Shown here in pieces: positions 20,768 through 27,955 of a stretch of DNA of 56,319 nt. Origin of the DNA: a bacterium (lineage in GTDB: Bacteria; Methylomirabilota; Methylomirabilia; CAVQYV01). The position numbers and the translations under genes are program-made. The notes under the pieces are model-generated. The model saw nothing but the letters and a program-made list of their open reading frames with translations, made no database searches and was not told the origin of the DNA. The stretch covers positions 1 through 56,319 of the forward strand of contig JAZDMQ010000076.1 in assembly GCA_043800755.1 (NCBI GenBank), given 5' to 3'. How positions within the stretch are numbered: the stretch's first letter is position 1; each line of letters opens with the position of its first letter.

Positions 20768-21625
20768 TCAAACCGTCACCACCAAGTTGTCAATCAGCCT
20801 TGCCTCTCCAAACCTTACAGCCAGGGCGAGCAGGACCTTGCCTTCCACCTTCTCTATCCCCTCCAACGATTCCGCGCCCACCAGGGCTACATAGTCGATC
20901 CGGGCCGTGGGCATGGAGGCGATCATCCTGCTCATCCCCTCTCGAATGCGCTGGGCTTCTCGATCCCCCTTCCGGATCGCCTCCTCCGCCCAGCGAAGGG
21001 CACGAAAGAGAACGGCCGCCTCCTGCCGTTCCTGCCCACTGAGATAGGCATTGCGGGAACTCATCGCCAGCCCATCTGCCTCGCGAACTATGGGGAGGAT
21101 GACCAATTCGATGTCCCAATTCAGGTCGGCCACCATACGGCCAATGATCATCGCCTGCTGCGCATCCTTCTGGCCGAAATAGGCCCGATTGGGCATGGTC
21201 AGGTGGAAGAGCTTGGCCACCACGGTAGTCACCCCTCGGAAGTGCCCGGGTCGAGAGGCTCCGCAGAGCTTGTCGCTCAGCCCCTCCACCAAGACATAGG
21301 TGCTGAACCCTTTGGGATAAATGGCCTCCGGGGAAGGGACAAAGAGGTAATCCACCCCCAAGGAGGAGGCCTTGGCTTTATCTCCCTCCAGATCCCTGGG
21401 GTACCCACGATAGTCCTCTGAGGGCCCAAATTGGATGGGATTGACGAAGAGGCTGACAATCACCACCTCATCCCTCTTCCGGGATTCTCGGATCAGGGAG
21501 AGATGCCCCTCATGATAGGCCCCCATCGTGGGGACCAGTCCGATCGCTTTCCCCGCCTGCCGGAGACCAAGGCAGATCGCCCGCATCTCCTCAACCTTCT
21601 CCATGGTCTGCATGGATCTTCCCAC
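20768..21625 (-). CDS. panC: Pantoate--beta-alanine ligase
   Basis: VPTMGAYHEGH, FVNPIQF, RPGHFRGV, FGQKDAQQ, GLAMSSRN, RLIDN. GTG start after GGAGG (or ATG 21613). Confidence 0.98.
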   Translation of the reverse strand: MGRSMQTMEKVEEMRAICLGLRQAGKAIGLVPTMGAYHEGHLSLIRESRKRDEVVIVSLFVNPIQFGPSEDYRGYPRDLEGDKAKASSLGVDYLFVPSPEAIYPKGFSTYVLVEGLSDKLCGASRPGHFRGVTTVVAKLFHLTMPNRAYFGQKDAQQAMIIGRMVADLNWDIELVILPIVREADGLAMSSRNAYLSGQERQEAAVLFRALRWAEEAIRKGDREAQRIREGMSRMIASMPTARIDYVALVGAESLEGIEKVEGKVLLALAVRFGEARLIDNLVVTV

Positions 21626-21642
21626 ACCACACCTCCCCCCCC

Positions 21643-21676
21643 AAAAAAAACAGCCCCTCGGACGGATCCGGGGGCT
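21643..21676 (-). terminator. Intrinsic terminator immediately upstream of the panC RBS
   Basis: AGCCCC-CGGA-tccg-TCCG-a-GGGGCT stem followed by gT8. Confidence 0.7.
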
Positions 21677-21873
21677 AATGGCCAACGCCTCAATTCAAAA
21701 ATCCGCCCACCTCGAGGCAGGATTTCCCGTCCTCTGGCGGACCACAAAGCACAATTTGTCGCCTTCCCCCGAAAGACCCGTCTCGGTCCCAATTCCTGGG
21801 ATCCAAGCGGGCCCTGGTTTCGCTTTCCTCTGTTGCACCTCCCTGAAAAGCCCTCCCCCCCTCCCTCAGGGGA

Positions 21874-22389
21874 TCAAGGGATTTCCCAGAGTGGGCCCTC
21901 CATCCTCCTTACTTGATGAGGATCCTCGAGGTCCACCAATAAGGCCTTCACCGTCTTCCCCAGCCTGGGATGCACCTGCTGGCCGGCCAACTCCGATAGA
22001 GGGACCAGCACGAATCGCCGCTGGTGCAGTCGGGGATGAGGGACGATGAGCGATTCCGACTCCAGGAGGAGGTCTCCATAAAACAAGAGATCGAGATCGA
22101 TGGGACGATCCGCCGGCCTTGCCCCCCCTGATTTTCCCATGGCCCTTTCAATCCGTTTCAGGCCCCGCAAGAGTGAACTGGGGGCCAGATCCGTTTCTCC
22201 CTCGGCGACGGCATTGACGAACCAGCCTCCAAATCCCTCTCCCACCGGTTCGGTCTCATAAGCTGAAGAGGTGCGGATCAGGCGAAATCCCTCGATCGCC
22301 AAGAGGCGGCGCAGGGCCTCCTGGCAGTGTCCTAACCGGTCGCCCTGATTCGAACCGATCCCCAGATAGACCTTAGTGCTCCGTTTCAT
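21874..22389 (-). CDS. folK: HPPK (2-amino-4-hydroxy-6-hydroxymethyldihydropteridine diphosphokinase)
   Basis: YLGIGSNQGDR, YETEPVG, RPIDLDLL, VPHPRLHQRRFVLVPL. Confidence 0.96.
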   Translation of the reverse strand: MKRSTKVYLGIGSNQGDRLGHCQEALRRLLAIEGFRLIRTSSAYETEPVGEGFGGWFVNAVAEGETDLAPSSLLRGLKRIERAMGKSGGARPADRPIDLDLLFYGDLLLESESLIVPHPRLHQRRFVLVPLSELAGQQVHPRLGKTVKALLVDLEDPHQVRRMEGPLWEIP

Positions 22390-22499
22390 AAATGCTGTAA
22401 CATACTATTTCCCGGAAACGGAGCACTTCCACAGGGGCTTACGCCCCTATGGCGCTCCATCAATCCCGAATACGTAACCGAAATTATAAGAGGGCGCAC

Positions 22500-22862
22500 T
22501 TAGGCAAGGCGACCTCTCCTAATCTCCACCCCCACAAAGTCGAGGCGAGAATCAAGGGGAGGGCATCGTTTCCTAAGGCGGATCATTAGTCCCTGCGCTG
22601 GAAACACTTCCAGGATCGCCGCTGCCATAGCCTCGGCCAAGGATTCCAGGAGCAGGTGCTGACTCTCCTGCCCTATCTTCTGCACCAGCCGACATACCTG
22701 CCCGTAATCAATGGTATCAGCGAGGGCATCGCTTTGAGCCGCCCGGGAGAGATCATAGGAGATCTCCAGATCGACCTGATAGTGCCCCCCCAGGCCTCTT
22801 TCAGCCTCGGAGACGCCGTGGTAACCATAGAATTGCAAACCCTCGATCAGGATCTTGTCCAA
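22500..22862 (-). CDS. folB: Dihydroneopterin aldolase
   Basis: DKILIEGLQFYGYHGV..ER, DTIDYG, LLESLAE; TTG start after GAGG. Confidence 0.95.
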   Translation of the reverse strand: MDKILIEGLQFYGYHGVSEAERGLGGHYQVDLEISYDLSRAAQSDALADTIDYGQVCRLVQKIGQESQHLLLESLAEAMAAAILEVFPAQGLMIRLRKRCPPLDSRLDFVGVEIRRGRLA

Positions 22863-22878
22863 CCCCAGCCTCACACAA

Positions 22879-24072
22879 CTAAGCCCGACAAGCCTTCTCC
22901 CGGATGCCAATCCCCCGGATGCGCTCTACTGCCTCCTCGATGCGCGGTTCGGGAACCGTGAGGGCAACCCGGAAGAATCCCTCTCCGTGCTGGCCAAATC
23001 CGTTTCCCGGGGTCACAACGATCCCGGTCTGCTCTAAGAGGGTTGCCGTGAATTCGGCCGAGGTGAATCCCTTGGGGACCGGGATCCAGGCATAGAAGCT
23101 GGCCTGGGGTGGGTCTATTTCCCATCCCATCTCGCGCAGGCCCCTCACCAGGGCATCCCGACGACCCTGAAAGGTTAACCTGGCCTTCTCCAGGGAATCC
23201 TGAGGGCCATTCAAAGCGGCTATCCCTGCATATTGCACCGCTTGAAACACCCCGGAGTCCAGGTTGGTCTTGACCCTGCCCAACCCGGACAGGATCTGGG
23301 CGTTCCCCACGGCGAAACCGATCCTCCACCCGGTCATGTTGTAGGTCTTGGAGAGGGAGTGGAATTCCACTGCCACCTCTTTGGCACCCTCCACCTGCAA
23401 GATGCTGGGGGGGCGATAGCCATCGAAACAGATCTCCGAATAGGCAGCATCATGACACAGGATGAGGCCGTGTCTGCTTGCCAGCTCCACTGCCTGGCGG
23501 AAGAAATCCAGGGAGGCCACGGAGGCGGTGGGATTATTCGGGTAATTGATGAAGATCATCTTTGCCTTCCCGAGGACCTCCCGGGGAACCTGTTGGAAAT
23601 CCGGCAGGTAGCCATTGGCTCTCATGATGGGCATGAAGTGAGGGATGCCCCCTGCTAGAACTGTCCCTGCCTGATAGACGGGGTATCCCGGATCTGGAAC
23701 CAGTACGAAATCACCGGGATCAATGAAGGCCAAGGGGATGTGGCCAATCCCCTCTTTGGATCCAATCAGGCTCAGCACCTCAGCCTCGGCATTCAGCTTC
23801 ACCCCAAATCTCCTGTCATACCAATCGGCCACCGCCTGCCGAAAAGAGAGCATGCCCTCGTAGGACGGATACTGGTGATTCCGGGCATCGACAGCCGCCG
23901 CGGCCAATTTCTCTACGATGTGGGAGGGGGTGGGGAGGTCCGGATCTCCAATGCCCAAGTTGATGATGTCCATTCCCCGTTTGGCGGCTTCTTGCTTCAA
24001 GCGATCAAGCTCCGCAAAGAGATAGGGAGGCAGTGCCTGCAATCGCTTGGCCTGTCCAAATCGTTGATCCAT
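22879..24072 (-). CDS. dapL: LL-diaminopimelate aminotransferase (PLP fold type I)
   Basis: LPPYLFAELD, LGIGDPDLP, GSKEGIGH, NYPNNPT, SLSKTYNMTGWRIG. Context: dapA/dapB/dapF/lysA present, no dapD/dapC/dapE in the window. Confidence 0.8.
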   Translation of the reverse strand: MDQRFGQAKRLQALPPYLFAELDRLKQEAAKRGMDIINLGIGDPDLPTPSHIVEKLAAAAVDARNHQYPSYEGMLSFRQAVADWYDRRFGVKLNAEAEVLSLIGSKEGIGHIPLAFIDPGDFVLVPDPGYPVYQAGTVLAGGIPHFMPIMRANGYLPDFQQVPREVLGKAKMIFINYPNNPTASVASLDFFRQAVELASRHGLILCHDAAYSEICFDGYRPPSILQVEGAKEVAVEFHSLSKTYNMTGWRIGFAVGNAQILSGLGRVKTNLDSGVFQAVQYAGIAALNGPQDSLEKARLTFQGRRDALVRGLREMGWEIDPPQASFYAWIPVPKGFTSAEFTATLLEQTGIVVTPGNGFGQHGEGFFRVALTVPEPRIEEAVERIRGIGIREKACRA

Positions 24073-24086
24073 CTCTTGCCTTTCCT

Positions 24087-24848
24087 CTAAGGTTGCGCCA
24101 CCAGGTTCTTCAGGCGACCAATCTTCTCGATCTCTACCTCCACCACATCCCCGGCCTTCATAGGCCCGATGCCTGAAGGCGTGCCCGTGGAGATGATGTC
24201 CCCGGGGAGCAGGGTCAGGACGGAGGAGATGAAGCTCACCAGATGGAAGGGATCGAAAATCAGGTGGACCGTATTGGAGGATTGTCTCACCTCGCCGTTG
24301 AGATAGGTCTTGATCGCCAGCCCCAGCGGATCAATATCGGTGACAATGTGGGGGCCGAAGGCCGCAAAGGTATCGAAGATCTTGGCCCGCAGCGGGCCAT
24401 TATCCTTGGCCACCAAGTCGCGCGCCGTGACATCGTTAAAACAGGTATAGCCCAGGATATATTCCCCTGCCTCCTCTCGGGGGATGTTCTTGGCCTTCTT
24501 CTTGATGACCACCGCCAACTCCCCCTCGTAATCCACCCGGGCCGACATGGGCGGCAGGAGGATCTGTTCCCCCGGGCCGATGACCGCCGTAGGAGGCTTG
24601 AGGAAGATGTGGGGCTCCTCCGGCAGGGCCTGGCCAACCTCCGCCGCATGATCCCTGTAATTGAGGCCGACGCAGACGATCTTGGACGGGTCGCAGGGCG
24701 CCAGGATCTGCACCGCGTTCAGGGAAACCTCAGAGCCGGTCATCTCCGGGTCTTCAAAGGGATCGCCCTTCAGGATCCTCACCCGCTCCCCCTCCAAGAT
24801 CCCATACCGGATCTCTCCCCCGGTCCGAAATCTCAAGTACTTGGACAT
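24087..24848 (-). CDS. Fumarylacetoacetate hydrolase (FAH) family protein
   Basis: CVGLNYRDH, FLKP, DYEGEL, NDVTARD, AKIFDTF, GDIISTGTPSG. Confidence 0.92.
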   Translation of the reverse strand: MSKYLRFRTGGEIRYGILEGERVRILKGDPFEDPEMTGSEVSLNAVQILAPCDPSKIVCVGLNYRDHAAEVGQALPEEPHIFLKPPTAVIGPGEQILLPPMSARVDYEGELAVVIKKKAKNIPREEAGEYILGYTCFNDVTARDLVAKDNGPLRAKIFDTFAAFGPHIVTDIDPLGLAIKTYLNGEVRQSSNTVHLIFDPFHLVSFISSVLTLLPGDIISTGTPSGIGPMKAGDVVEVEIEKIGRLKNLVAQP

Positions 24849-24881: not shown

Positions 24882-26108
24882 CTATCGCCCCTCCTTGACT
24901 TGCCTCACGATCTGCCGGAATTCCTCCTCGGTCAGGAGGCCCTTTTTCTCCAGCGATTTCATCTTCACCTGGGAAAGGATCTTGGTAATCTCCTCCTCGG
25001 AGGCCCGTTCCCCAATCCGCTCCAGCCAGGTGGCGATGGAATCGAGGCCACTATTCTTACCCAACACGATCTCGGCCGGCCCCTGGCCCACGAGTCCCCA
25101 ATGGAAGGGAAAGAGTTCAGTGGGACGATCCTTCCCGCAGTTGCGATACCAGGAGGCGATGATGCCCGATTCGATGTTGAAAACCCAATCTCCCACGATG
25201 GGCCGATTCGAAGGGATCTGGAGGCCTGAAAGTTCCCGAATGAGCCTGGAAAGGGGATAGAATTCCTCGCAGCGAATGCCGAGATCCTGTCCGTACATGG
25301 TCAGGAGGCTGAGCACCAGATCCTCGAAGGAGCAATTTCCTGCCCTCTCCCCGATGCCAGTCACGGTCGTATGGGCCACCTCCGCCCCCGCGGCCAGGCC
25401 CATGACGGTGTTGGCGACCCCCATGCCAAAATCATCGTGGAAATGGGTCTCCAGGGGTTTCTTGATCCGCTCTTTGATCTTGCTGATCCAGAAGCCGATG
25501 GCATGGGGAGAGCAAACCCCAAAGGTGTCCACCACCGCTAAAGCATCCATGTGCCCTTCGGTGGCTACCTTCTCGATGAGGTCAAGGTACCAGCCCATCT
25601 CGGAGCGGGAGGAGTCGATGGGGAAGAAGACCGTGTACAGGCCCTGTTCTTTTGCGAATCGGGTCGCCTCAATGGAGAGATCGATTGCCTTCTGCAAGGG
25701 CCACTTGTATGCATACTGAATGATGTGGGGGGAAGAAGGGACCTCCACCACGATCCCCTTGACCCCACAGTCTACGGCCCTTTTGACATCGGGGACCATG
25801 CAGCGGGAAAAGGCAAAGATCTCCGGGCCCAGGTTCAACTTCACGATCTCCTTGATGGCCGCCTCGTCCTCGGGGGAGACTGCGGGCATTCCCGCCTCGA
25901 TGCGGTGGACGCCAGCCTCCGCCAGCTTGATGGCGATCCGCACCTTCTCCTCTTTGCGGAACTCAATCCCGGCCTGCTGTTCTCCGTCCCTCAAGGTCAC
26001 ATCGTGGATCTTGATCTTCTGGGGAAATCGAAAACCGGAGGTGACCTCCGGCAAGTAATTCCAGGCACTGACGAACCACTTTTCCGCCTTCCCAGGTTCC
26101 ACTATCAT
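24882..26108 (-). CDS. DRE-TIM metallolyase, LeuA/homocitrate/citramalate-synthase-like; substrate unknown
   Basis: DVTLRDGEQ, HFHDD (HxH), GIGERAGN; 408 aa, no LeuA regulatory domain; SD GAGGAGG before ATG 26108. Confidence 0.85.
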   Translation of the reverse strand: MIVEPGKAEKWFVSAWNYLPEVTSGFRFPQKIKIHDVTLRDGEQQAGIEFRKEEKVRIAIKLAEAGVHRIEAGMPAVSPEDEAAIKEIVKLNLGPEIFAFSRCMVPDVKRAVDCGVKGIVVEVPSSPHIIQYAYKWPLQKAIDLSIEATRFAKEQGLYTVFFPIDSSRSEMGWYLDLIEKVATEGHMDALAVVDTFGVCSPHAIGFWISKIKERIKKPLETHFHDDFGMGVANTVMGLAAGAEVAHTTVTGIGERAGNCSFEDLVLSLLTMYGQDLGIRCEEFYPLSRLIRELSGLQIPSNRPIVGDWVFNIESGIIASWYRNCGKDRPTELFPFHWGLVGQGPAEIVLGKNSGLDSIATWLERIGERASEEEITKILSQVKMKSLEKKGLLTEEEFRQIVRQVKEGR

Positions 26109-26213
26109 CCCTCCTCGATGGTAAAGTTCATCGCCCGAGCCCTCCCCCCAGGGAGGCTCCGGCCAAGCGAGCCAATGCAATGAGCCGGGCGGGAAAGGCC
26201 CCCGCCGCTTCCT

Positions 26214-27017
26214 CTATTTTAGTCCCAGCACATCCAACATATCATAGAGTCCATTGTTGGCGTGCACCACAAACCTCGCCGCCCGCAGGGCACCCCGCGC
26301 AAAATTGTCCCGGCTTCCCGCCCGATGGGTCAGTTCCACCCGCTCTCCCATGCCCCCAAAAATCACCGTGTGCTCCCCCACCACATCGCCCGCCCTGAGG
26401 GTGTGGATGGCGATCTCCTCGCGGGGCCTCTCTCCAATGATTCCTTGGCGGCCAAAGATCCCCACCTTCTCCAGGTCTCTCCCCGTGGCCGCCGCTATGA
26501 TCTGGGCCATGCGCAACGCGGTGCCGGAAGGGGCATCCTTCTTGAACCGATGATGGATCTCCGAGATCTCCACATCATATCCATGGGCGAAGATGGGGGC
26601 GATCTCCTCCAGCACCTTAAAGAGGACATTGACCCCCACGCTCATGTTGGGGCAAAGGACACAGGGACAATGCGCGGCAAGTCCCCGGACCTGCTCCACC
26701 TCATTCTTGGAGAAACCTGTCGTCCCAACCACAATCGCCTTCCCCGCAGCCGAGGTGATCTCTACATGGCGGAGAGAGGCTGAAGGTACAGTAAAATCGA
26801 CGGCCACATCGCATCCCTCGATCACCTGTGCAAGATCCTGGAGGATGGGAATGCCCGAGGGGCCCACCCCCGCCACCTCCCCTGCGTCCCTGCCCACAGC
26901 CGGATGGCCCTCTTTCTCCGTTGCCCCCACCAATTGCAGGCCCTCATCCTCCTTCAGCAGGGCGATAATCCGCGAGCCCATCCTCCCCGCAGCCCCGGTC
27001 ACTGCCACCTTGATCAT
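26214..27017 (-). CDS. dapB: 4-hydroxy-tetrahydrodipicolinate reductase
   Basis: GAAGRMG, GTTG, EIHHRFKKDAPSGTA, GEHTV; SD AGGAGG. Confidence 0.98.
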   Translation of the reverse strand: MIKVAVTGAAGRMGSRIIALLKEDEGLQLVGATEKEGHPAVGRDAGEVAGVGPSGIPILQDLAQVIEGCDVAVDFTVPSASLRHVEITSAAGKAIVVGTTGFSKNEVEQVRGLAAHCPCVLCPNMSVGVNVLFKVLEEIAPIFAHGYDVEISEIHHRFKKDAPSGTALRMAQIIAAATGRDLEKVGIFGRQGIIGERPREEIAIHTLRAGDVVGEHTVIFGGMGERVELTHRAGSRDNFARGALRAARFVVHANNGLYDMLDVLGLK

Positions 27018-27082: not shown

Positions 27083-27955
27083 TCAGATCAGCCGATATCT
27101 TGCGAGAACCTCCTTCAACTTCTTGAGGTTTCCCTCCGCCATCCCCACCAGCGGGAGCCGCAGCTCTCCATCGATCTTTCCCATGAGGGCCAGGGCGGTC
27201 TTCACCGGGACGGGATTGGTCTCCAGGAACATCGCCTGGCAAAGGGGGAAGGCATCCCTCTGGACCTGGGAGGCCCGCATAAAATCCCCCGCCTCAAAGG
27301 CATCCACCAGATCGGCCATCAGGCGCGGGGCCACATTGGCCACCACCGAGATGACCCCCTTGCCTCCCACCGACAGGATCGGCATGACGATGAAATCATC
27401 CCCGGACAGGACGGCGATCTTATCCTGGCAGAGGGTGATCAACTCGGTGATTTGTTGGAGCGAGCCGCTGGCCTCCTTGACCCCCACCAGGTGCGGGATC
27501 GTACACAGCTCCGCGATGGATTCCGGCAGCATATTGACCCCGGTGCGAGTCGGAACATTGTAGATGATCATGGGAATCTCCACCGCCTCGGCAACCGCCC
27601 GGAAATGAGCAACCAGTCCTTTCTGGGTGGGACGGTTATAGTAGGGGGTAATCAGGAGGGCGCCGTCCGCGCCCGCGGCCTTGGCATGCCTGGTGAGGCT
27701 AATGGACTCTGCCGTACTGTTGGACCCGGTTCCCGCAATCACCGGGATCCTCCCGTCCACGACCTTGATGGTGAAGTCGATGACCCGATGGTGTTCCTCG
27801 TGGGTCAGGGTGGCCGATTCTCCGGTGGTGCCGCAGGGAACGATGCCATCTGTGCCATTGGCAATCTGAAACTCAATCAGCTCCTTCAGCCTTTTCTCGT
27901 CGACCTCCCCATTTTGGAACGGGGTTACGATGGCAACAATCGATCCTTTAAACAT
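27083..27955 (-). CDS. dapA: 4-hydroxy-tetrahydrodipicolinate synthase
   Basis: GTTGES, TPYYN, YNVPTRT, GVKEAS, ETNPVPVK. Confidence 0.98.
   Translation of the reverse strand: MFKGSIVAIVTPFQNGEVDEKRLKELIEFQIANGTDGIVPCGTTGESATLTHEEHHRVIDFTIKVVDGRIPVIAGTGSNSTAESISLTRHAKAAGADGALLITPYYNRPTQKGLVAHFRAVAEAVEIPMIIYNVPTRTGVNMLPESIAELCTIPHLVGVKEASGSLQQITELITLCQDKIAVLSGDDFIVMPILSVGGKGVISVVANVAPRLMADLVDAFEAGDFMRASQVQRDAFPLCQAMFLETNPVPVKTALALMGKIDGELRLPLVGMAEGNLKKLKEVLARYRLI

What the first reader, a model, noticed from the sequence alone, without database searches (positions are those of the whole stretch)
24882..26108. LeuA-like DRE-TIM enzyme lacking the conserved GIH histidine, inside the DAP lysine cluster
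Seen: intact RDGEQ, HFHDD and GERAGN, but FNIESGIIASW where isopropylmalate, citramalate and homocitrate synthases have H-x-(S/A)-G-(I/L)-H; no regulatory domain. Known: in yeast homocitrate synthase this His is part of the Glu-His catalytic dyad. Homocitrate synthase starts the alternative AAA lysine route, yet this genome region encodes a full DapL route. Inference: a different reaction (aldol cleavage or a non-acetyl-CoA condensation), possibly paired with the neighbouring FAH protein as an undescribed 2-oxoacid module.
Basis: partly seen in the sequence, partly recalled or inferred. Interest (0 to 1): 0.58.

Follow-up and report, generated by a model that had tools for sequence, protein, structure and literature searches.

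The report
LeuA relative missing its condensation triad
This gene encodes an intact, widely conserved relative of the leucine-pathway enzyme LeuA that has lost the three residues such enzymes use to activate acetyl-CoA and gained a new acidic residue, so it probably splits small keto-acids instead of building them, and many genomes may carry it under a wrong name.

Summary
Observation confirmed and extended. The 408-aa DRE-TIM protein keeps the metal and 2-oxoacid site but lacks the whole Glu-Tyr-His triad of LeuA-type synthases (Ile164, Thr330, Ile317), not only the His. It gains Glu122 on strand 4, invariant in 273 close homologs, and has a small hydrophobic pocket (F100, V160, F162) without the homocitrate-synthase residues. 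It sits in one large clade of triad-less LeuA descendants (about 88 clusters at 50% identity). I found no characterised member. The genome already has LeuA, CimA and a Re-citrate-synthase-like paralog. The FAH pairing is not supported: dapB-FAH adjacency exists in 21 class relatives that lack this gene. Homologs mostly lie in catabolic operons (2-hydroxyacid dehydrogenase, M24 hydrolase, Zn-ADH), although a second lineage also places the gene behind dapB. Best reading: C3-C4 cleavage of a metal-bound 2-oxoacid through the pyruvate enolate, most likely a class II pyruvate aldolase (0.45). Rivals are CoA-dependent acylpyruvate thiolysis (0.2) and oxaloacetate decarboxylase (0.15). The substrate is inferred, not shown. 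The scan noted family members in other genomes, without the triad loss.

The parts
24882..26108 (-). Triad-less LeuA-clade DRE-TIM metalloenzyme, 408 aa (406 if it starts at GTG 26102): TIM barrel plus C-terminal subdomains I and II, no regulatory domain
   Evidence: model pLDDT 93; best structural match SaHCS 6KTQ, Z 39.0, rmsd 1.4 over 270 residues
25974..25991 (-). R40-D41-G-E43-Q44-Q45: DRE helix (Arg binding the substrate, metal-binding Asp)
   Evidence: 100% conserved in 273 homologs; equals Arg89, Asp90, Gln93 of MAMS (PMC11532901)
25743..25745 (-). E122 on strand 4: new invariant Glu where LeuA has Phe; candidate acid/base (inferred)
   Evidence: 100% of 273 close homologs; Glu in 59 of 97 triad-less rows, Phe in 17 of 23 His-bearing rows
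25617..25625 (-). F162-P-I164: I164 replaces the triad Glu (MAMS Glu227); F162 fills the side-chain pocket (Ser, Thr or Gly in IPMS, HCS, MAMS)
   Evidence: alignments; F162 and I164 100% conserved
25437..25445 (-). H222-x-H224 metal ligands
   Evidence: His288 and His290 of MAMS
25335..25352 (-). G253-E-R-A-G-N258 motif, kept from the LeuA clade
25149..25172 (-). E313-S-G-I-I317-A-S-W320: I317 replaces the catalytic His (MAMS His388); W320 is nearly invariant
25119..25121 (-). T330 (Leu, Thr, Val or Gln in the family) replaces the stacking Tyr (MAMS Tyr399)
   Evidence: 6KTQ alignment
25047..25061 (-). G350-K351-x-S-G354 linker motif (NmIPMS Lys332), kept
26214..27014 (-). dapB, upstream neighbour (105-bp gap)
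   Evidence: TIGR00036 over the cut-off
24087..24848 (-). FAH-family gene (Rv2993c-like); an older member of the dapB-FAH-dapL string, not a dedicated partner
22879..24072 (-). dapL, LL-diaminopimelate aminotransferase (context)
   Evidence: TIGR03540 over the cut-off
27083..27955 (-). dapA (context): a canonical HTPA synthase is present in the same operon
   Evidence: TIGR00674 over the cut-off

Best explanation
A LeuA descendant whose chemistry moved from the acetyl-CoA methyl group to C3 of the metal-bound 2-oxoacid. Shown by alignment: the metal site (D41, H222, H224), the 2-oxoacid ligands (R40, T195) and a small hydrophobic pocket (F100, V120, V160, F162, V193) are kept; the Glu-Tyr-His triad is replaced by aliphatic residues; E122 is new and invariant. 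Inferred: the pocket takes a pyruvate moiety, the space left by the triad takes a C4 substituent, the C3-C4 bond breaks to give the pyruvate enolate held by the metal and R40, and E122 (or a water it holds) protonates C3. The most likely physiological reaction is CoA-independent retro-aldol cleavage of a 4-hydroxy-2-oxoacid into pyruvate and an aldehyde (class II pyruvate aldolase), with oxaloacetate decarboxylase side activity. The substrate is not identified. Here the gene is an insertion between dapB and the FAH gene, limited to this family among the relatives searched.
For: Triad loss. In MAMS, H388A/D/E/Q, E227A/D and Y399S are inactive (PMC11532901). Glu and His are lost together: only 1 of 97 His-less rows keeps the Glu, and they form one clade with support 99. 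The His, Arg and Ser/Thr of HCS at the pocket positions are F100, V160 and F162 here (positions as in PMC12961565). Neighbours in 171 loci, 51 groups at 80% identity: D-2-hydroxyacid dehydrogenase 19 groups, M24 hydrolase 12, Zn-ADH 10; an aldehyde-handling enzyme (Zn-ADH, aldehyde oxidoreductase, ALDH, Mo-hydroxylase) in 20. A 2-oxopent-4-enoate-hydratase-like gene lies directly upstream in L009 and L141. DHDPS-like and CitE-like lyases, malate synthase and PPDK also occur nearby. Class II pyruvate aldolases, including the DRE-TIM enzyme DmpG, share the enolate and the OAA decarboxylase activity (PMC5065237).
Against: Q44, R102, E254, R255, K351 and both C-terminal subdomains are invariant. 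In synthases these surround CoA, which a plain aldolase would not need; however R77, E236 and K332 of NmIPMS also form subunit contacts (PMC9860122). Acyl-CoA-handling genes lie nearby in 12 of 51 groups. The His that DmpG-type aldolases carry after RDG (own knowledge) is Gln here. MAMS E227Q and H388N keep some activity, and four His-bearing relatives have Met at the Glu position. The position of E122 rests on alignment; model coordinates could not be inspected. Neighbour counts have no background control.
Confidence: 0.45

Rival explanations
1. CoA-dependent thiolysis: the same C3-C4 cleavage, but the CoA thiol attacks the C4 carbonyl of a 2,4-dioxoacid (acetylpyruvate, formylpyruvate), giving acyl-CoA and pyruvate. 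This would be an energy-conserving counterpart of FAH hydrolases.
For: Explains both the loss of the triad and the retention of Q44, R102, E254/R255, K351 and subdomain II. Phosphotransacylase with acetate or butyrate kinase lies beside the gene in L034 and L074, and a PTA_PTB gene follows it in L116. A formyltransferase fused to an acyl-CoA synthetase is adjacent in L071 and L073, with formate-THF ligase in L071. Formylpyruvate is a known catabolite, proposed to be cleaved by an FAH protein (PMC7356986).
Against: Such neighbours occur in 12 of 51 groups, fewer than aldehyde-handling genes (20), and L071, L073 and L074 belong to a more distant subclade (47-49% identity). I found no described enzyme of this type.
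Confidence: 0.2
2. A dedicated oxaloacetate (or 3-substituted oxaloacetate) decarboxylase or keto-enol tautomerase that supplies pyruvate or clears enol-oxaloacetate.
For: A generic reaction would explain stand-alone copies, the slot behind dapB, and contexts with fumarase, succinate dehydrogenase, SucCD and a malate racemase. No other OadA- or PycB-type DRE-TIM was found in the genome.
Against: It does not explain the frequent Zn-ADH and aldehyde oxidoreductase neighbours, or the strongly conserved aromatic residues (Y134, W136, W320), which suggest a larger substrate (inference).
Confidence: 0.15
3. An acyl-CoA lyase (citramalyl- or malyl-CoA type, like HMG-CoA lyase) or an acyltransferase that uses acetyl-CoA only as an electrophile.
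For: CoA-side residues are kept; CitE lyases, family III CoA-transferases and SucCD occur in a few groups.
Against: The commonest operon (2-hydroxyacid dehydrogenase, M24, Zn-ADH) has no enzyme that makes a CoA ester; the HMG-CoA lyase model scores 54.8 against a cut-off of 246.
Confidence: 0.1
4. An ordinary Claisen synthase (IPMS, CimA or HCS type) that uses E122 or water as the base.
For: Closest models and structures are all synthases; single triad mutants of MAMS keep some activity.
Against: All three residues are lost, in a whole clade; all curated cut-offs are missed; LeuA and CimA are present; no LeuCD or dehydrogenase partner recurs among the neighbour clusters.
Confidence: 0.07
5. 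A metal-dependent stand-in for DapA (pyruvate plus aspartate semialdehyde) in lysine synthesis.
For: In a deltaproteobacterial lineage the operon reads lysA-dapF-dapB-this gene with no dapA.
Against: A DapA over the cut-off lies elsewhere in that lineage (orthologs in 15 of 17 genomes searched); the window has dapA in the operon; several members of that lineage moved or lost the gene.
Confidence: 0.03

Closest known systems
LeuA-type Claisen synthases (IPMS, homocitrate synthase, citramalate synthase, MAMS; TIGR02090 LEU1_arch)
   Same: Fold (6KTQ Z 39.0), about 30% identity, DRE helix, HxH, Thr, GERAGN, ESG, GKxSG, subdomains I and II.
   Different: Glu-Tyr-His triad absent; new E122; pocket F100/V160/F162; best model score 317.5 against a cut-off of 484.75; catabolic neighbourhoods.
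4-hydroxy-2-oxovalerate aldolase DmpG/BphI/MhpE (DRE-TIM class II pyruvate aldolase)
   Same: Same superfamily and metal site; also lacks the synthase triad (own knowledge); the proposed reaction type.
   Different: About 21% identity, TIGR03217 66 bits against a cut-off of 286; Gln instead of His after RDG; no acylating acetaldehyde dehydrogenase found in 5 genomes searched. It would be a separate origin of aldolase chemistry, from the LeuA branch.
HMG-CoA lyase and (R)-citramalyl-CoA lyase
   Same: DRE-TIM fold and C-C cleavage.
   Different: About 20% identity; those enzymes end with the barrel, this one keeps the LeuA subdomains; model score far below the cut-off.
FAH-family acylpyruvate hydrolases and oxaloacetate decarboxylases
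   Same: Analogous chemistry on a metal-bound 2-oxoacid that leaves a pyruvate enolate (own knowledge).
   Different: Unrelated fold; the adjacent FAH gene is inherited independently of this gene.

Membership tests
DRE-TIM metallolyase superfamily | TIM barrel with R-D-x-E helix and HxH metal site | tested here: met
   PF00682 204.8 bits; R40, D41, E43, H222, H224; structural matches Z 30-39
LeuA-type Claisen synthases | Catalytic His in G-(I/V)-H of subdomain I | tested here: not met
   I317; ungapped alignment to four solved enzymes
LeuA-type Claisen synthases | Strand-5 Glu and stacking Tyr of the Glu-Tyr-His triad | tested here: not met
   I164 and T330; roles from PMC11532901
LeuA-type Claisen synthases | 2-oxoacid ligands Arg and Thr; CoA-proximal Gln; C-terminal subdomains I and II | tested here: met
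   R40, T195, Q44; model covers residues 300-405
LeuA-type Claisen synthases | Acetyl-CoA plus 2-oxoacid condensation activity | not testable with these tools
   needs an assay
2-isopropylmalate synthase | Curated model cut-off; leu operon context | tested here: not met
   192.6 against 598.7 bits; the true LeuA is on contig C132 in an ilv-leu operon
Homocitrate synthase | His, Arg and Ser/Thr that bind the 5-carboxylate side of 2-oxoglutarate | tested here: not met
   F100, V160, F162; models 276.7 against 462.9 and 223.5 against 413.55; no LysX over the cut-off
Citramalate synthase | Curated model cut-off | tested here: not met
   134.9 against 450; the true CimA is on contig C134
4-hydroxy-2-oxovalerate aldolase (DmpG/MhpE) | His after RDG; model cut-off | tested here: not met
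   Q44; 66 against 286 bits; the motif is from own knowledge
4-hydroxy-2-oxovalerate aldolase (DmpG/MhpE) | Partner acylating acetaldehyde dehydrogenase | tested here: inconclusive
   TIGR03215 not found over the cut-off in 5 genomes searched, three of them of unknown completeness
Class II pyruvate aldolases (functional class) | Pyruvate C3 proton exchange and retro-aldol cleavage | not testable with these tools
   inferred from active site and neighbours
HMG-CoA lyase family | Curated model cut-off | tested here: not met
   54.8 against 246 bits

The most novel reading that the evidence does not exclude
The triad-less clade (about 88 or more clusters at 50% identity) is an unrecognised functional branch of the DRE-TIM superfamily, and this member is a 2,4-dioxoacid:CoA thiolase that uses the inherited CoA tunnel with reversed polarity to capture acyl- or formyl-CoA, a reaction type for which I found no description.
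Probability: 0.2. Interest if true: 0.8.

Novelty: new variant of a known kind. Interest (0 to 1): 0.58.

Why it matters
Databases call these proteins LeuA family, isopropylmalate/homocitrate/citramalate synthase or pyruvate carboxyltransferase, so they can distort reconstructions of leucine, lysine and citramalate routes in uncultured bacteria. A three-position fingerprint (no Glu on strand 5, no His in ESGI, often Glu on strand 4) separates them. If they cleave 2-oxoacids, the synthase branch gave rise to lyase chemistry while keeping its accessory domain, and the enzyme is the handle on an unassigned catabolic operon (M24 hydrolase, 2-hydroxyacid dehydrogenase, Zn-ADH, amidohydrolase) found across several phyla. 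A few cheap assays would settle it.

Tried and rejected
FAH module: rejected by synteny. AAA lysine or nifV role: rejected on pocket residues, model scores and no LysX. DapA replacement: raised, mostly rejected. PanB replacement (panC is nearby without panB): panB lies on contig C110. Fixed partnership with the M24 hydrolase: no ortholog found in G000 or G001, both rated 100% complete. One origin or two for the dapB-linked copies: the trees separate them, but the AU test does not reject one clade (p 0.25), so this is unresolved. Plasmid search gave only distant matches, 35% or less. ESM Atlas gave generic names. Literature searches found no description of this clade; the DRE-TIM network paper (DOI 10.1021/acs.biochem.5b01193, cited from memory) and the HCS, IPMS and MAMS structure papers were not held, so the yeast Glu-His dyad is taken from own knowledge and an earlier mention of the clade cannot be excluded. 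The IQ-TREE run on the wide set did not finish; the wide tree is FastTree only, with five frameshifted or partial rows left out and the trait columns left in. No complex prediction was run, as no binding claim is made.

Full report
Observation. The gene at 26108-24882 (- strand) encodes an intact 408-aa protein, lying in the string lysA-dapF-dapA-dapB-gene-FAH-dapL-folB-folK-panC. Its GC3 (0.77) matches its neighbours (0.70-0.81). Pfam gives HMGL-like only. The best NCBIfam model is LEU1_arch at 317.5 bits against a cut-off of 484.75, and every synthase model misses its cut-off. The predicted model is confident (pLDDT 93) and matches homocitrate, methylthioalkylmalate and isopropylmalate synthases best (Z 38-39).

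Active site. In MAMS, Asp90, His288 and His290 bind the metal, Arg89 and Thr257 bind the 2-oxoacid, Gln93 lies near the CoA thiol, and Glu227, Tyr399 and His388 form an arrangement conserved in IPMS; His388 is the likely base, and H388A/D/E/Q, E227A/D and Y399S are inactive (PMC11532901). Alignments to four solved enzymes map the first group onto D41, H222, H224, R40, T195 and Q44, all kept. They map the triad onto I164, T330 and I317, all lost. Across 273 distinct close homologs, position 164 is always Ile, position 317 is Ile or Val in 98%, position 330 is Leu, Thr, Val or Gln, and no His in residues 300-345 is conserved. The pocket positions that are His, Arg and Ser/Thr in homocitrate synthases are F100, V160 and F162, which argues against 2-oxoglutarate binding and for a small side chain. 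E122 on strand 4, where LeuA has Phe, is invariant, as are H128, Y134, W136 and nearly W320. Q44, R102, E254, R255 and K351 are also invariant; their NmIPMS equivalents R77, E236 and K332 make subunit contacts (PMC9860122), so their retention does not prove CoA use.

Family. The 120 best database hits (65-91% identity) all lack the His. A profile search of 50%-identity representatives shows a much wider set. Of 120 full-length rows, 97 lack the His and only one of those keeps the Glu; 59 carry Glu at position 122. In a FastTree tree the 97 rows, with one His-bearing row that lacks the Glu, form one clade with support 99, apart from the canonical synthases. Nine of the 97 are the query and added close homologs, leaving about 88 clusters. 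The caveats are a fast method, long branches and a query profile biased towards the clade. Record titles of close homologs span Methylomirabilota, Acidobacteriota, Armatimonadota, Bacillota, Chloroflexota, Thermodesulfobacteriota, Nitrospinota, Actinomycetota and Budvicia aquatica. The nearest GTDB genome is an NC10 bacterium at 91% with the same gene order.

Own genome. It holds four DRE-TIM genes: LeuA in an ilv-leu operon, CimA (both over their cut-offs), a Re-citrate-synthase-like gene with LeuCD-like and isocitrate-dehydrogenase-like neighbours (identified by motif and context only), and this one. No LysX passes the cut-off. The gene is therefore not needed for leucine, isoleucine or AAA lysine synthesis.

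Neighbours. Among 31 genomes of the class, only the two of this family have the gene, while dapB is directly followed by the FAH gene in 21 others, 14 of them with dapL next. The gene is thus an insertion into an older string, and the FAH pairing is incidental. In 171 loci, grouped into 51 sets at 80% identity, the recurrent neighbours are a D-2-hydroxyacid dehydrogenase (19 groups), a DddP-like M24 protein (12), GntR regulators (11), a Zn-dependent dehydrogenase (10), an SDR (7) and an Amidohydro_2 protein (7), with transporters. Aldehyde-handling enzymes occur in 20 groups and acyl-CoA-handling enzymes in 12. FAH occurs in 4 and dapB in 2. The second dapB case is a deltaproteobacterial lineage with lysA-dapF-dapB-gene and no dapA in the operon. 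DapA lies elsewhere in 15 of 17 of those genomes, and some members carry the gene behind homoserine dehydrogenase and panB, or behind a 2-oxopent-4-enoate-hydratase-like gene. Whether the two dapB-linked sets share one origin is open (p-AU 0.25). The M24 partner was not found in this genome, and some copies stand alone, so the reaction probably acts on a fairly common intermediate.

Mechanism. Shown: the machinery for enolising acetyl-CoA is gone, the 2-oxoacid site is intact and narrowed, and a new carboxylate is fixed beside it in sequence. Inferred: the enzyme works on C3 of the bound 2-oxoacid through the pyruvate enolate (about 0.8 for this umbrella). What leaves from C4 is open. An aldehyde (class II aldolase, 0.45) fits the commonest neighbours; such aldolases also decarboxylate oxaloacetate (PMC5065237). 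An acyl group passed to CoA (0.2) fits the kept CoA-side residues and the phosphotransacylase-kinase pairs and formyltransferase-synthetase fusions beside some homologs. CO2 (0.15) fits stand-alone and C4-dicarboxylate contexts. An acyl-CoA lyase or transferase (0.1), an ordinary synthase (0.07) and a DapA stand-in (0.03) remain.

Comparison and verdict. It is a member of the DRE-TIM superfamily and a descendant of the LeuA branch, but it fails the defining catalytic test for IPMS, CimA and HCS and is not a DmpG or HMG-CoA lyase family member. It probably works like a class II pyruvate aldolase. I found no paper on this clade, but the main network study of the superfamily was not held, so prior notice cannot be excluded. 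Earlier scan notes flagged members in other genomes as parts of unknown catabolic clusters; none of the lines shown mentions the triad. Novelty: new variant of a known kind. Interest 0.58: a clear, widespread and cheaply testable change of chemistry, with the substrate unknown.

Noticed in passing
window 26100-26116: The AGGAGG lies only 1 nt before the ATG at 26108 but 7 nt before an in-frame GTG at 26102, the likelier start (406 aa).
   Followed up: partly
window 24087-24848; L088, L090-L109: The Rv2993c-like FAH gene directly follows dapB in 21 class relatives, often before dapL; its role in this conserved string is unassigned.
   Followed up: partly
L071:2991-5891 and L073:2850-5720: A formyltransferase domain fused to an NDP-forming acyl-CoA synthetase lies beside more distant homologs; L071 also has formate-THF ligase. 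Possibly formyl-CoA handling.
   Followed up: partly
L216:897-11227; L243: A deltaproteobacterial arg-lys operon lacks dapA and dapL; a divergent dapA stands alone elsewhere.
   Followed up: yes
L083 (G000:C36:12548-17022): Re-citrate-synthase-like gene with LeuC/LeuD-like genes and an isocitrate-dehydrogenase-like gene: an apparent 2-oxoglutarate synthesis unit.
   Followed up: no
L287 (G000:C154:27000-34216): A gene resembling HpcH/HpaI aldolases (by eye only), a 2-hydroxyacid dehydrogenase of the same type that accompanies the DRE-TIM gene elsewhere, and an acetoin-dehydrogenase-like complex.
   Followed up: no
window 20768-22910: folB-folK-panC without panB; panB lies on contig C110.
   Followed up: yes
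L117:1352-21212: Large operon with the homolog, two DHDPS-like genes, two M24 proteins, two Zn-ADHs, a nitrilase, TauE and an NMT1-type binding protein; possibly sulfonate-related catabolism.
   Followed up: no
P0214, P0234, P0251, P0265: His-bearing LeuA relatives with Met in place of the strand-5 Glu.
   Followed up: no
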